Shown piece by piece: positions 38,990 to 42,801 of a stretch of DNA of 64,000 bases (positions are counted from its first letter, which is position 1; each line of letters begins with the position of its first letter). The notes under the pieces are model-generated. The model was not told the DNA's origin and made no database searches. It saw only the letters and a list, made by a program, of their open reading frames with translations. A program made the position numbers and the translations under genes. The stretch is from the human T2T-CHM13v2.0 reference genome, Homo sapiens, in the NCBI RefSeq assembly GCF_009914755.1, contig NC_060933.1; one strand, given 5' to 3'.

Positions 38990-41340
38990 TCTTTCTTTAA
39001 AAATTTCTATTATGGAAATCTTTAAAGTGTATAAGAGTAGAGAGAATATCGCATTGAATCCCCATGTTACTGTCACTCCCATTTCAACCACCATAAACTT
39101 GTGATCAATCTTCCTTTATCTCTACCCTCATCCGCAGGGGAACACTCCTCCCTGATTATTGTGAAGCAATCCTCTGTAGCTCATTGTTTTATCCGTAAGC
39201 ATTTCAAGATGAATCTTTAAATATAAGGGCTCTTGTTCAGAAAAACCACATAACCACAGTACCATTATCACACCTAAAATGTTAAAAACGTTTTCTTTTT
39301 TTACATACTTTAAATACTTCATCCAGTTGTTTTCTGGCTTGCATCATGTCCAAGAAGTCGGATTTAATTTTTATGTTTATTCCTCTATGTAAAGTACTCT
39401 GTGTAAAGTACCCCCCAGTCTCCTGCCTTTGGCTGACTTCAATATTTTTTAATCTTTGATTGTCAAAAGTCTAATCATATTAATAATGTGTCTAGGGGTG
39501 TATGCATGTATGTATTTAACCCTATGTGGGATTCTCTTGAATTCTTGGCTCTGTTGTTTGTTGTTGTTCATTAATTTTAGGAAATGCTCAGCTATTATTT
39601 TTTCAAATATTTCTCCTTCCCCATTCTTTGTCTCTTGTCCTTCTGAGGCTCCAATTACACATGTGTTAGATAATTTGTGATGACAAATGAGCTCTTACAT
39701 TCATTTTTCTGATTTATTTCTCCCCTTTTTTCTTCTTGTGTTTCAGTTTAGATCGTCTCTATTGGAACATCTTTAAGTTCACTGATTCTTTCCTTAGCTG
39801 TGTCCAGTCTGCTGATGAGCCTGTTGAAGGAATTCTTCTTCTCCGATACTGTGTGTTTTTTTTTTTTTTTTAGCATTTCTCTTTGACTCTTTTAAAATAG
39901 TTTTTAGTTCTCTGAAATTCCCCATCTGTTTATGTAATTGTTTATCTTTTTCATTAGATCATTTAACATATTAGACATGGTTGTTTTAAACACCCTGTCT
40001 GATAGTTCCAATCTCTGGTTCATCTCTGACTTTGGTTCAGCTGATTGCTTTATCTCTTGACAATGGTTTGGGTTTTCCTGTTTTTTGTAGATCTCATAAA
40101 TTTTTATTGAATGCTGAATAATATGTGGATAAGAACAGTAGATATTCAGGTCAATTGTATTTATGCCTAGAAATGGGTACAACCCTTTTTTGGGGCAATT
40201 AGTGTGGAAGGTTAAGTTAACCTAGTCAAGCGGTGATCTGGGTTTGGGTTTTACTGTTTCTGTTTTAACCTTCAGTGTACCACAGGCCTCAAATTCCCCC
40301 AGCAGTGGCATATTTTTACTGGGTACTGGAACTGGGGAAGGGTACTGGAGAGGTTTTTAAGTGTTCCTGTTTCTCCCTCAGTTTTCAGTAGTGACTGCAA
40401 GTCTGTAACACAAAATACAGTTCTATCTCCAGGGTCTTAAACTTTCCCTGGTAGCAGAGACCTCTGACTAGTATTGGTGCAGGATTCTGAGCACAAGTTT
40501 TCCTACCCTCTCCCCAGAGGCAGAAGAGTTTTTACTTTTGCCCGTCTCTCAGAGACAATAGATCTCTTTCTGGACCTGGGGATGAGAAGGTTTTTAGCGT
40601 GTACACCTAGGAACATAAAGCATTTGTTTCATGTAAGAGAAGGGTTTGGGGGAGCAGAAGGGCTTCATCCTTGTCTCCCAGTGACAGCTGATCGTCGCTT
40701 GCATACCTGTACCACCAAGTTTCCTTCTTTGTTCCTAATTTTTTGTGAGGACCCAGTGGAAATCTGTGGAAAAGAACTTAAAAATGTGCCCCTTGTATCT
40801 GGAACCCCAGGTGATTTTAAAGTAATGTAAAGGCCTATACTAGGCCTTTAAGAATTTTTTAAACTCTTACATGATTTCTTATTATCTGGTTTTTATGGCA
40901 GCCTCCTCTTTCTCCTATGCTTTGCCAAAGCTGAGAGAATTTTCAGGATCTGTCTCTCCTTGGAGTGGCTCTTTGGAATTCACTTGACTGTGTGGTCATC
41001 TCAGATCTCTGAGTTCAAGAAAACTTACCATGTTTGAGATTTCCTGGCCTTTTACCATTGCTAGGATGGGAATAGCTTTCTCTTACTGATTTGCATATCC
41101 TAAAGAGAAGTACACAAGTGGAACTCTAAAAGTAATTTCTTAATAATTTCCTCTATCCTCATTTTCCCCCTCCCCATTAACAGTTTGTTCTAATTGGATC
41201 TAAAAGATCTTACACTGTAATTGGCTGATATGTCTCTTAAGTCTCTTTTAATCTACGTTTCTCTTCTTTACATTTTGCCCTTATTATTTATTCATTGAAG
41301 AAACTGGGTCATATTTCCTATAGAGCTTTAAAATTGCTTT
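38990..41340 (-). mobile_element. Nested antisense L1M relics: L1MC-like 3' UTR (38990-39310, 41141-41337) interrupted by an L1M 5'/ORF1 fragment (about 39320-41120)
   Basis: Minus-strand ORF1-like EMNQRLELSDRVFKTTMSNMLNDL; atgtctcttaagtctcttttaatcta 3' UTR motif. Confidence 0.65.
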
Positions 41341-41635
41341 GATTTTGATGCTGCTGTCCTAATTTTCCTTTCTAATTTGCTTAATGTTTATATGAAGAGA
41401 AGCTATTGATTAATATGCTTTTTCTCTGGTTTGCAACTTCCTTAGTTGCAATTATAGTAATTATTAATTTAATTATCATATTAATTGTAGTGGATTTTTT
41501 TTCCAAAAACTCTATATTCTCTTGGGATTTTAAAATATATAATCACATAATCTATGAATAAAATATTTTTTGTGTTTTTCCCCTAAAACCTACAACCCAC
41601 CCTCCCTTCCTTCCTTCCTTCCTTTCTTTCTTGGC

Positions 41636-41860
41636 TCAGGTGCACATGTGAATGTTTGTTACATGAGCAAACTCATGTCACAGGGGTTTGTGGTACAGAT
41701 TATTTCATCACCCAGGAATTAAGCCCAGTACCCAATAATTGTCGTTTCTGCTCCTCTCCTTCCTCCCACCCTACTCCTCAAGAAGACCCGGTGTCTGTTG
41801 TTTCCTTCTTTGTGTTCATAAATTCTCATCATTTCGCTCCCACTTATAACTGAGAACATC
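41636..41860 (-). mobile_element. L1PA/L1PB 3'-end fragment preceded by (CCTT)n
   Basis: ggggtttgtggtacagattatttcatcacccagg...ctcccacttataactgagaaca. Confidence 0.8.
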
Positions 41861-42220
41861 ATGCTTATATAGACTATTGTTCCCATTCCTAGTTACTTAG
41901 AGTCTTATATATTGTATACAATAATTCTGCCACTAGTTAGTCAAATAAATCTAGCAACTGGAATGAAAACTGGTAAGTACAGGTTATCCCTTTTCTCTGT
42001 CTTTATAAGCATTTATTAAGTGTTTACAATATATTATAGACTTTTAGTTTCCAATTAAAGGGGTAAATATTCCATGTGTAAGCCATGTTACGCTTTTAGT
42101 AATAAGTATTTGCCTATTTCAATTCAATAAACATTTACTCAGTGCTGACAGAGTACCAGGCATTGTGTTGGATGGTGTGTAGAATACAAAATGCTCAACA
42201 CCACACCCTTCAGAATTTTC

Positions 42221-42513
42221 TAATAATTTCCTCTATCCTCATTTTCCCCCTCCCCGTTAACAGTTTGTTCTAATTGGTTCTAAAAGATCTTACACTGTAA
42301 TTGGCTGATATGTCTCTTAAGTCTCTTTTAATCTACGTTTCTCTTCTTTACATTTTGCCCTTATTATTTATTCATTGAAGAAACTGGGTCATATTTCCTA
42401 TAGAGCTTTAAAATTGCCTTTTACCATTGCTAGGATGGGAATAGCTTTCTCTTACTGATTTTCATATCCTAAAGAGAAGTACACAAGTGGAACTCTAAAA
42501 GTAATTTCTTAAT
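42221..42513 (+). repeat. Circularly permuted ~99%-identical local duplicate of 41047-41337
   Basis: 42221-42417 = 41141-41337; 42416-42513 = 41047-41144; 3 substitutions by manual alignment. Confidence 0.95.
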
Positions 42514-42517
42514 TGCT

Positions 42518-42801
42518 TTGGAGATGGACTCTTGCTCTGTCACCCAGGCTGGAGTGTAGTGGCACTATCTCAGCTCACTGCAACCTCTGCTTCCTGGGTT
42601 CAGGTGATTCTCATGCCTCAGCCTCCCAAGTAGCAGGACCACAGGCGTGTGCCATCACTCCCTGACTAATATTTGTATTTTTAGGAGAGACAGGATTTCA
42701 CCATATTGGCCAGGCTGGTCTAAAACTCCTGGCCTCAAGTGATCCGCCCACCTTGGCCTCCGAAAGTGCTGGGATGGCAGGCATGAACCGCCATGCCGGC
42801 C
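42518..42801 (-). mobile_element. Alu (AluJb/Sz-like), antisense, poly-A tail missing
   Basis: ttggagatggactcttgctctgtcacccagg...catgccggcc, directly abutting the duplicate. Confidence 0.92.

What the first reader, a model, noticed from the sequence alone, without database searches (positions are those of the whole stretch)
41047..42520. Circularly permuted 289-bp local duplicate: possible fossil of a re-integrated small DNA circle
Seen: the donor reads A-B (A = 41047-41144, B = 41141-41337) and the copy about 1.1 kb downstream reads B-A (42221-42417, then 42416-42513). The end of B joins the start of A through a 2-nt GC microhomology, with no loss or gain. The copy begins and ends with the same TAAT, so it is exactly one 289-bp circle opened at a different point. 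Only 3 substitutions separate the copies, so the event is recent. The copy abuts an L2 relic on the left and stands where the poly-A tail of the adjacent antisense Alu should be. Its last bases (aattgctttg) also match the donor end of B. Inference: either a microDNA-sized extrachromosomal circle re-inserted next to its origin, or serial template switching (MMBIR/FoSTeS or Pol theta) during break repair. Donor B lies in register with surrounding L1 relics, so 41047-41337 is the more likely original.
Basis: partly seen in the sequence, partly recalled or inferred. Interest (0 to 1): 0.8.

Follow-up and report, generated by a model that had tools for sequence, protein, structure and literature searches.

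The report
Permuted repair-copy patch in PGM5 intron
A 300-base patch in an intron of human PGM5 is a re-ordered copy of DNA lying 1.1 kb upstream: a real scar of a one-off DNA repair or copying accident, of a kind already described, with no sign of function.

Summary
Donor 41047-41337 (A then B) recurs at 42221-42513 as B then A, in the same orientation, with 3 mismatches, no indels and a 2-nt GC overlap at the B-to-A joint. These are the only high-identity copies in the T2T genome. It is the only permuted pair in 264 kb scanned.

Old dispersed repeats run across both outer edges of the donor but stop at the joint inside the copy. The donor is therefore ancestral.

The patch replaced the poly-T and left target-site duplication of a much older antisense Alu.

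The 7 nt after the copy (TGCTTTG, 42514-42520) repeat donor 41335-41341. Four of them lie outside any 289-bp circle. So the patch is B-A-q made from a contiguous A-B-q.

I favour serial template switching on the chromosomal donor during break or fork repair (about 0.5). Re-insertion or one-round copying of a microDNA-sized circle is less likely (about 0.3). The exact one-unit length still argues for a closed or looped template.

AB-to-BA insertions are already in print: large duplications (PMC7450558) and 82 human polymorphic insertions (bioRxiv 10.64898/2026.09.03.749254). This is a new member of a known kind, of modest interest.

The parts
41047..41144 (+). Donor block A (98 nt; its last 4 nt, TAAT, are shared with B)
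   Evidence: Dispersed old-repeat relatives align across its left edge at 41047 in 5 of 5 loci tested (L011, L012, L013, L019, L020).
41141..41337 (+). Donor block B (197 nt)
   Evidence: An old dispersed repeat covers about 41177-41332 (36 hits). 6 of 12 relatives run past 41337 to 41342-41370. Two of those six, L014 and L015, were fetched because one search already showed them crossing.
41335..41341 (+). Donor of the tail q (TGCTTTG). It overlaps the last 3 nt of B and runs 4 nt beyond it. It is also the loop of a weak AAAAT/ATTTT hairpin.
41342..42220 (.). Unduplicated spacer between donor and patch. It holds a (TTCC)n-like tract at about 41598-41632 and old repeat relics.
   Evidence: inverted pairs I2 and I3; L017 match at 41628-41859.
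42221..42417 (+). Copy of B (2 mismatches in 197)
   Evidence: In the copy context, 0 of 11 detected repeat relatives pass 42418.
42416..42513 (+). Copy of A (1 mismatch in 98), joined to B through a shared GC
   Evidence: The upstream-repeat relatives begin at 42416 and 42419 here.
42514..42520 (+). Tail q (TGCTTTG): a third templated block, reached through AAT microhomology
42521..42801 (-). Old Alu (sense on the minus strand). Its body is intact from the first base, but it lacks its A-tail (poly-T on the + strand) and its left target-site duplication.
   Evidence: It differs by 12.9% from the majority consensus of 15 window Alus. No left copy of the target-site duplication was found.
42802..42814 (+). 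Right target-site duplication of the Alu (ACTATTACTTTTT, my reading). The 85% homology to chromosome 4 starts exactly here.

Best explanation
The patch is one complex repair or replication accident. A break or collapsed fork arose at the T-tail of an old antisense Alu. A DNA end was then extended by a low-processivity polymerase that copied three pieces of one contiguous 295-nt stretch lying 1.1-1.4 kb upstream on an intact template, such as the sister chromatid or homologue.

The path in window coordinates is:
1. Left flank up to 42220.
2. Donor 41141-41337 (B).
3. Switch through GC to 41047-41144 (A).
4. Switch through AAT back to 41335-41341 (q), within 3 nt of where the polymerase first left.
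5. Join to the first base of the Alu body at 42521.

The result is a 300-nt mosaic, B-A-q, made from A-B-q. It replaced the Alu's poly-T, its left target-site duplication and probably more sequence.

Shown: the blocks, the junctions, the donor's ancestral status, and the loss of the tail and target-site duplication.

Inferred: that this was a single event, the direction of synthesis, the kind of polymerase or pathway (MMBIR/FoSTeS/serial replication slippage-like), and that it happened in the germline some millions of years ago.

The patch has no apparent function. It lies deep in the PGM5 intron between the exons at 38678-38793 and 53003-53138.
For: (1) Three templated blocks come from one 295-nt stretch, all in direct orientation.

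(2) There is microhomology at the inner switches: GC at B-to-A and AAT at A-to-q.

(3) The tail q includes TTTG (41338-41341), which a circle made of 41047-41337 does not contain.
- In 264 kb read on both strands, 7 of 13,852 AAT sites (0.05%) are followed by TGCTTTG, and 121 (0.9%) by TGC.
- 0 of 14 other Alus in the window have G before GAGA, so the second G of 'TTTGGAGA' is better explained by the donor.

(4) The donor is local, unique and ancestral.

(5) The target lost sequence. There is no poly-T and no left target-site duplication. The chromosome-4 relative of 42802-43755 starts its homology exactly at the right target-site duplication. That is expected if everything to the left of the Alu was removed.

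(6) A and B copies are equally diverged, 1 in 98 and 2 in 197, which fits one event. The Alu is far older, at 12.9% from consensus.

(7) In print, 79 of 80 intrachromosomal human AB-to-BA insertions have the orientation of their source, and 78 of 80 lie within 10 Mb of it (bioRxiv 10.64898/2026.09.03.749254, section read). My inference is that a free circle should insert in either orientation, so this bias fits copying in cis better.
Against: The A block ends (41141-41144) exactly where the B block began (41141). The patch is therefore one unit plus 1-4 nt. Independent switches give no reason for this. I put the chance at a few per cent; this is my estimate, not a computed value. A closed or looped template explains it naturally.

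The two outer junctions show no clean microhomology. On the left there is TTTC only if one T is skipped. On the right the join to the Alu body is blunt.

No outgroup or second haplotype could be examined. The pre-insertion allele, the single-event assumption and the target deletion are therefore inferred.

If the ancestral target happened to read TTTG before GAGA, only TGC would remain as evidence for the third block.
Confidence: 0.5

Rival explanations
1. A 289-bp extrachromosomal circle of microDNA size formed from 41047-41337 by joining its ends at GC. It was then either opened at TAAT and ligated into a break beside the Alu, or copied once around by a polymerase that stalled on meeting its own 5' end.
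For: The patch is an exact cyclic permutation, one unit long with a 1-4 nt terminal redundancy. The closing joint has 2 nt of microhomology, as at the circle-closing junctions of cSDP2 and cSDP8 in PMC7450558. The size lies within the 100-400 bp given for microDNA (PMC9527254, passages). Mouse germline eccDNA can integrate, and 82 of 327 source-resolved human insertions are AB-to-BA (bioRxiv 10.64898/2026.09.03.749254).
Against: The tail TGCTTTG continues into donor sequence outside the circle. On the circle, TGC would be followed by C, not T. The source is 34% G+C intronic repeat relic, not the gene-dense, 5'UTR, exon or CpG-island origin described for microDNA. Insertion 1.1 kb from the source and in the same orientation is not predicted for a free circle; this is my inference.
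Confidence: 0.3
2. Several steps rather than one event. One version is a plain copy of B-q (41141-41341) placed beside the Alu, followed later by a nested insertion of A. Another is a tandem A-B-A-B at the donor or target, trimmed by deletion.
For: The copy can be parsed as B-q with a 93-nt insert flanked by a 6-nt AATTGC repeat (read directly). A tandem duplication of 41047-41337 would create the same GC joint.
Against: This needs two or three independent rare events at one spot. The exact abutment of A's end and B's start still needs explaining. A and B copies are equally diverged. No trace of a tandem array exists at the donor or elsewhere in the genome.
Confidence: 0.1
3. Assembly artefact in T2T-CHM13.
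For: None found. Only one assembly was available.
Against: The two copies differ at 3 sites and have unique junctions on both sides. The whole structure spans 1.5 kb, far less than a long read; that comparison rests on my own knowledge.
Confidence: 0.02
4. An RNA route: reverse transcription of a circular, back-spliced RNA made from A-B.
For: A permuted order is what a retrocopy derived from a circular RNA would show. This point is recalled, not searched.
Against: No AG...GT pair fits any of the three possible junction registers on either strand (read directly). There is no A-tail and no target-site duplication at the patch. The tail q is genomic sequence from beyond the junction.
Confidence: 0.02

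Closest known systems
AB-to-BA ('eccDNA-mediated') polymorphic insertions in human long-read data (bioRxiv 10.64898/2026.09.03.749254)
   Same: A small insertion that is a cyclic shift of a unique nearby source (source span at most 5 kb in their screen). It has the same orientation as its source, is intrachromosomal and lies in an intron. These features match those they report: 79 of 80 in the same orientation, 78 of 80 within 10 Mb, and about 80% intergenic or intronic.
   Different: This one was found in the T2T reference itself, not as a called polymorphism. Whether it is in their Table S2 could not be checked, because preprint supplements are closed. It carries a third block that returns to the donor beyond the circle joint. 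The preprint's main text does not mention template switching or MMBIR (0 occurrences).
Circular-intermediate segmental duplications (Chicote et al. 2020, PMC7450558) and the cattle colour-sidedness translocations they cite
   Same: The block order is flipped without inversion. Closing joints show 0-2 nt of microhomology or 1-nt insertions, with small scars at the insertion. Breakpoints lie in unrelated interspersed repeats.
   Different: Those are 22 kb to 3.9 Mb long and 0.09-58 Mb apart, or on other chromosomes. This one is 0.29 kb long and 1.1 kb away.
MMBIR / FoSTeS / serial replication slippage with templated insertions
   Same: Several short blocks are copied from nearby sequence, joined at 2-3 nt microhomologies, with loss of sequence at the site. 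Passages of PMC8421209 describe multi-template templated insertions at sites of microhomology. PMC2621351 was seen only as a search listing.
   Different: The screen in PMC8421209 looks for inverted copies within 100 bp. Here the copies are direct, total 300 nt and come from 1.1-1.4 kb away. The blocks also tile one contiguous stretch exactly once, which is unusual.
microDNA
   Same: The size is 289 bp, and there is microhomology at the would-be closing joint (for the 100-400 bp size class).
   Different: The source is AT-rich intronic repeat relic (34% G+C), not a gene-dense, 5'UTR, exon or CpG-island region. No circle was observed.

Membership tests
Circle-derived (AB-to-BA) insertion | [quoted passage not shown] | tested here: met
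   source A-B, copy B-A, both direct.
Circle-derived (AB-to-BA) insertion | The two outer ends of the source are joined inside the copy with only microhomology or a tiny indel | tested here: met
   Position 41337 is joined to 41047 through a shared GC, with no loss or gain.
Circle-derived (AB-to-BA) insertion | Both ends of the copy map to one opening point in the source | tested here: met
   The copy starts at 41141 and ends at 41141-41144, sharing TAAT.
Circle-derived (AB-to-BA) insertion | A single unique source sequence | tested here: met
   the only high-identity matches in the genome are the donor and the patch.
Circle-derived (AB-to-BA) insertion | The inserted material is confined to the circle, with no source sequence from beyond the closing joint | tested here: not met
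   The tail TGCTTTG equals 41335-41341, and TTTG lies beyond the joint. Caveat: the pre-insertion allele is unknown.
Circle-derived (AB-to-BA) insertion | A physical circular intermediate existed | not testable with these tools
   This needs circle sequencing of germ cells. It is in any case unrecoverable for an old event.
Serial template switching (MMBIR/FoSTeS/SRS-like) | Two or more templated blocks from nearby sequence in one rearrangement | tested here: met
   Three blocks (B, A, q) come from 41047-41341.
Serial template switching (MMBIR/FoSTeS/SRS-like) | Microhomology at the switch points | tested here: inconclusive
   The inner switches show GC (2 nt) and AAT (3 nt). The outer junctions are blunt or need a 1-nt slip, and the ancestral target sequence is unknown.
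Serial template switching (MMBIR/FoSTeS/SRS-like) | Loss or other complexity at the repaired site | tested here: met
   The Alu poly-T and left target-site duplication are absent. The chromosome-4 homology starts exactly at the right target-site duplication.
Serial template switching (MMBIR/FoSTeS/SRS-like) | A single event, shown by an empty ancestral allele going directly to the full patch | not testable with these tools
   No primate or second human assembly was available.
microDNA | Size 100-400 bp | tested here: met
   The unit is 289 bp. The size class is from PMC9527254.
microDNA | Origin in gene-dense non-repetitive regions, 5'UTRs, exons or CpG islands | tested here: not met
   34% G+C. 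The source is intronic and overlaps old dispersed repeats. This is an enrichment, not a strict rule.

The most novel reading that the evidence does not exclude
The patch records copying around a closed loop on the chromosome, not a free circle.

The proposed sequence is as follows. A nascent strand copied B on a bounded single-stranded stretch of about 295 nt and stayed annealed there. Its 3' end jumped back to copy the adjacent A until it ran into its own 5' duplex, which would explain 'exactly one unit plus TAAT'. It then fell back to where it had first stalled, which would explain the TGCTTTG tail.

If that is general, the AB-to-BA insertions now being counted as eccDNA re-integrations would largely be products of template switching in cis. 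This would fit their published bias to the same orientation and the same chromosome. The same intermediate could also be a source of microDNA.
Probability: 0.3. Interest if true: 0.6.

Novelty: new member of a known kind. Interest (0 to 1): 0.33.

Why it matters
The locus itself is a neutral intronic scar. Its value is as a clean, base-resolved example of a class now under discussion, in which insertions are cyclic permutations of a nearby source. The 7-nt return tail, the local source in the same orientation and the loss of sequence at the target are details that can separate copying by template switching from ligation of a free circle. Checking the published AB-to-BA sets for such tails and for orientation bias would test how much of that class really passes through extrachromosomal circles.

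Tried and rejected
(1) A resemblance between the Alu's right flank (ACTATTACTTTTTACTATG) and the B-to-A joint, 13 of 19 matches. It is chance: 651 of 1000 shuffled queries did as well.

(2) DNA secondary structure of the donor. The folding energy is -16.6 kcal/mol against -18.4 +/- 3.8 for shuffles, so there is no excess structure. Only weak 4-5 bp A/T hairpins sit at 41134-41148 and 41330-41346. I kept these as a weak lead only.

(3) Naming the repeat relics. Nine ORF pieces from 40468-42273 gave no meaningful Pfam hit; the only one was E = 0.18, far below its cut-off. Region 41900-42220 has no dispersed relatives in the genome search. So 'L1' and 'L2' remain unverified.

(4) Further templated pieces in the left flank. 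None of 10 nt or more was found in 42150-42220 when compared with 38000-46000 on both strands.

(5) The back-spliced RNA route. No splice-site pair fits (read directly).

(6) The chromosome-4 relative as a stand-in for the pre-insertion allele.
- Its 186 nt upstream of the homology match nothing else in the genome and nothing in the window.
- Its candidate 8-nt target-site duplication is no better than chance; I expect about 0.8 such matches.
- It therefore suggests, but does not prove, that about 180 nt or more were deleted from chromosome 9.

I did not ask again, so the scan covers 264 kb only.

(9) No primate or other human assembly is reachable with these tools. Dating, polymorphism and the pre-insertion allele could not be tested.
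Full report
WHAT IS THERE

Reading 40900-42900 and repeat finding show two direct repeat pairs. They are 41134-41340 / 42214-42420 (207 nt, 98%) and 41047-41144 / 42416-42513 (98 nt, 99%).

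Compared in register:
- Block B (41141-41337 vs 42221-42417) has 2 mismatches in 197.
- Block A (41047-41144 vs 42416-42513) has 1 mismatch in 98.
- There are no indels, and similarity ends abruptly outside the blocks.

The source reads A-B and the copy reads B-A. The inner joint shares GC. The copy begins and ends with TAAT (41141-41144).

IS IT MORE THAN CHANCE, AND IS IT UNIQUE?

A search of the window's own genome (T2T, 3.1 Gb) with 41047-41337 found only the source and the two pieces of the copy at high identity. The other 36 hits are 70-94% matches to an old dispersed repeat inside B. That search skips very common words, so its counts are lower bounds.

A self-comparison of the window gave 4 local matches of at least 93% identity and 40 nt, two of which are this pair. 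I repeated it on 264 kb, made of the window plus the 200 kb upstream fetched. That gave 8 such matches and no other permuted pair.

WHICH COPY IS THE ORIGINAL?

Dispersed relatives of the old repeats serve as an internal outgroup.

Left edge. All 5 dispersed hits of 40700-41180 were fetched. All 5 align colinearly across the source's left edge at 41047, from 40618-40837 to 41060-41111.

Right edge.
- 6 of 12 relatives of the B repeat run past 41337, to 41342-41370.
- Among the 7 loci returned, which were not chosen for this purpose, 3 of 7 do so.
- L014 and L015 were fetched because one search already showed them crossing, so they are not independent.

Control in the copy's context.
- 0 of the 11 B relatives detected pass 42418; the joint is at 42417.
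- The two upstream-repeat relatives detected start at 42416 and 42419.

The A-B arrangement is therefore embedded in old repeats, and B-A is derived. The families could not be named.

THE TARGET SITE

The patch abuts an antisense Alu whose body starts at 42521 (GAGATGG...) and ends at 42801.

Of the 14 other Alus of the window shown in the same orientation, about 11 have a run of T directly before GAGA. None has a G there. This Alu has only 'tttg'.

I read the right target-site duplication as ACTATTACTTTTT (42802-42814). No left copy exists. The best look-alike is no better than shuffled controls, with 651 of 1000 shuffles doing as well.

The Alu differs by 12.9% from a majority consensus of the window's 15 Alus, against about 1% between the two A-B copies. 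The patch was therefore made long after the Alu inserted, and it removed the Alu's tail and left duplication.

A side result points the same way.
- 42802-43755 has a single relative in the genome, on chromosome 4, at 85% identity.
- That relative ends about 20 nt after an AATAAA in an A-rich tail, so it is probably an old retrocopy of a plus-strand transcript.
- Its homology to the window starts exactly at the first base of the right target-site duplication.
- This is expected if everything to the left of the Alu was lost from chromosome 9.
- The 186 nt upstream on chromosome 4 match nothing else in the genome or in the window.
- This suggests a deletion of about 180 nt or more, but does not prove it. 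The candidate duplication flanking the retrocopy is not significant.

THE TAIL

After the A copy come 7 nt, TGCTTTG (42514-42520), and then the Alu body.

Together with the preceding AAT they form AATTGCTTTG. Its only other occurrence in 38000-46000, on either strand, is 41332-41341, at the end of block B and 4 nt beyond it.

In 264 kb read on both strands, 7 of 13,852 AAT sites are followed by TGCTTTG (0.05%), and 121 are followed by TGC (0.9%).

The patch is therefore B-A-q, copied from a contiguous A-B-q (41047-41341). Each source base is used once, apart from overlaps of 3-4 nt at the joints. Two source positions were each used twice as breakpoints: 41141-41144 and 41335-41341.

MECHANISM

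A 289-bp circle made of 41047-41337 explains the exact one-unit length and the GC joint. It does not contain TTTG (41338-41341), because on the circle TGC is followed by C. It also gives no reason for insertion 1.1 kb away in the same orientation.

Serial template switching on the chromosomal source explains:
- the three blocks;
- the GC and AAT microhomologies;
- the return to the point of departure;
- the local, same-orientation source;
- the loss of sequence at the target.

It leaves one coincidence unexplained: the A block stops exactly where the B block began. It also leaves the two outer junctions without clean microhomology.

My preferred way to reconcile these points is inference only. 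The nascent strand stayed annealed over B on a bounded single-stranded stretch. It jumped back to copy A until it met its own 5' duplex, and then fell back to its first stalling point.

Weak A/T hairpins sit at both reused positions, but the source as a whole is no more structured than shuffles.

I put template switching on the chromosomal source at about 0.5. A circle, either ligated in or copied once around, is at about 0.3. Multi-step origins are at about 0.1. An assembly artefact and an RNA route are at about 0.02 each. No AG...GT pair fits any junction register on either strand.

AGE

Three differences in 293 compared sites is about 1.0%. One difference is at a CpG. With primate substitution rates of 0.5-1 x 10^-9 per site per year, taken from my own knowledge, that is roughly 5-10 million years. 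The Poisson range is about 1-30 million years, and gene conversion could make the event look younger. Whether the patch is fixed, polymorphic or shared with other apes could not be tested.

WHAT IS KNOWN

Chicote et al. 2020 (PMC7450558; abstract, Results and Discussion read).
- They described 16 characterised human segmental duplication pairs, out of 24 found, with the same flip of block order.
- These are 22 kb to 3.9 Mb long. Circle-closing joints show 0-2 nt of microhomology or a 1-nt insertion.
- They attributed them to circular intermediates and allowed NHEJ or MMBIR/FoSTeS for the insertion step.
- They cite the cattle translocations as the only earlier mammalian case.

A preprint of September 2026 (bioRxiv 10.64898/2026.09.03.749254; abstract, the section on human insertions, its methods section and the Discussion read).
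- It classed 82 of 327 source-resolved polymorphic human insertions as AB-to-BA and attributed them to eccDNA.
- 80 of 82 are intrachromosomal, 78 of 80 lie within 10 Mb of the source, and 79 of 80 have the source's orientation.
- Its main text does not contain 'template switch' or 'MMBIR'.
- Its Table S2 could not be opened, so I cannot say whether this locus is listed.

Size and origin of microDNA are from passages of PMC9527254. Multi-template templated insertions are from passages of PMC8421209. The MMBIR model paper (PMC2621351) and the short template-switch paper (PMC5453318) were seen only as search listings.

One search for 'circularly permuted' together with 'eccDNA', 'insertion' and 'genome' returned only the 2026 preprint.

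VERDICT

This is a real, rare and cleanly resolved rearrangement scar. It is a new member of a class already in print, has no sign of function and sits deep in a PGM5 intron. Its one feature of wider interest is the return tail, which argues that at least this AB-to-BA insertion was copied by template switching rather than ligated in from a free circle. Interest 0.33.

Noticed in passing
window 42802-43755; locus L023 1501-2457 (G000:C4:91204815-91205771): This stretch has a single relative in the genome, on chromosome 4, at 85% identity. That relative ends about 20 nt after an AATAAA in an A-rich tail. It is probably an old retrocopy of an unannotated plus-strand polyadenylated transcript ending near 43755 inside the PGM5 intron. 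Its homology starts exactly at the Alu's right target-site duplication.
   Followed up: partly
window 14089-14174 and 15131-15216: An 86-nt inverted local duplicate at 95% identity, about 1 kb apart, in sequence not listed as masked. It could be two fragments of one repeat family or a small inverted templated copy.
   Followed up: partly
window 41598-41632 and 43338-43433: A (TTCC)n-like pyrimidine tract lies 600 bp to the left of the patch. A GGAA/GGAT-rich purine tract lies 800 bp to its right. They are partly complementary: 28 nt at 79% and 21 nt at 86% (pairs I2 and I3). Tracts of this kind can hinder replication (my own knowledge), so they may have contributed to fork trouble here.
   Followed up: no
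window 41330-41346 and 41134-41148: Weak A/T mini-hairpins sit at the two source positions that were each used twice as breakpoints. One is AAAAT/ATTTT, whose loop TGCTTTG is exactly the tail q. The other is AATT/AATT around the A/B boundary. Their stability is marginal.
   Followed up: partly
200 kb upstream of the window, window coordinates -85821..-85550 and -71744..-68440: Other local direct repeats at 97% identity or more: a 118-nt pair 156 nt apart, and 40-48 nt pairs 1.5-1.9 kb apart. None is permuted.
   Followed up: no
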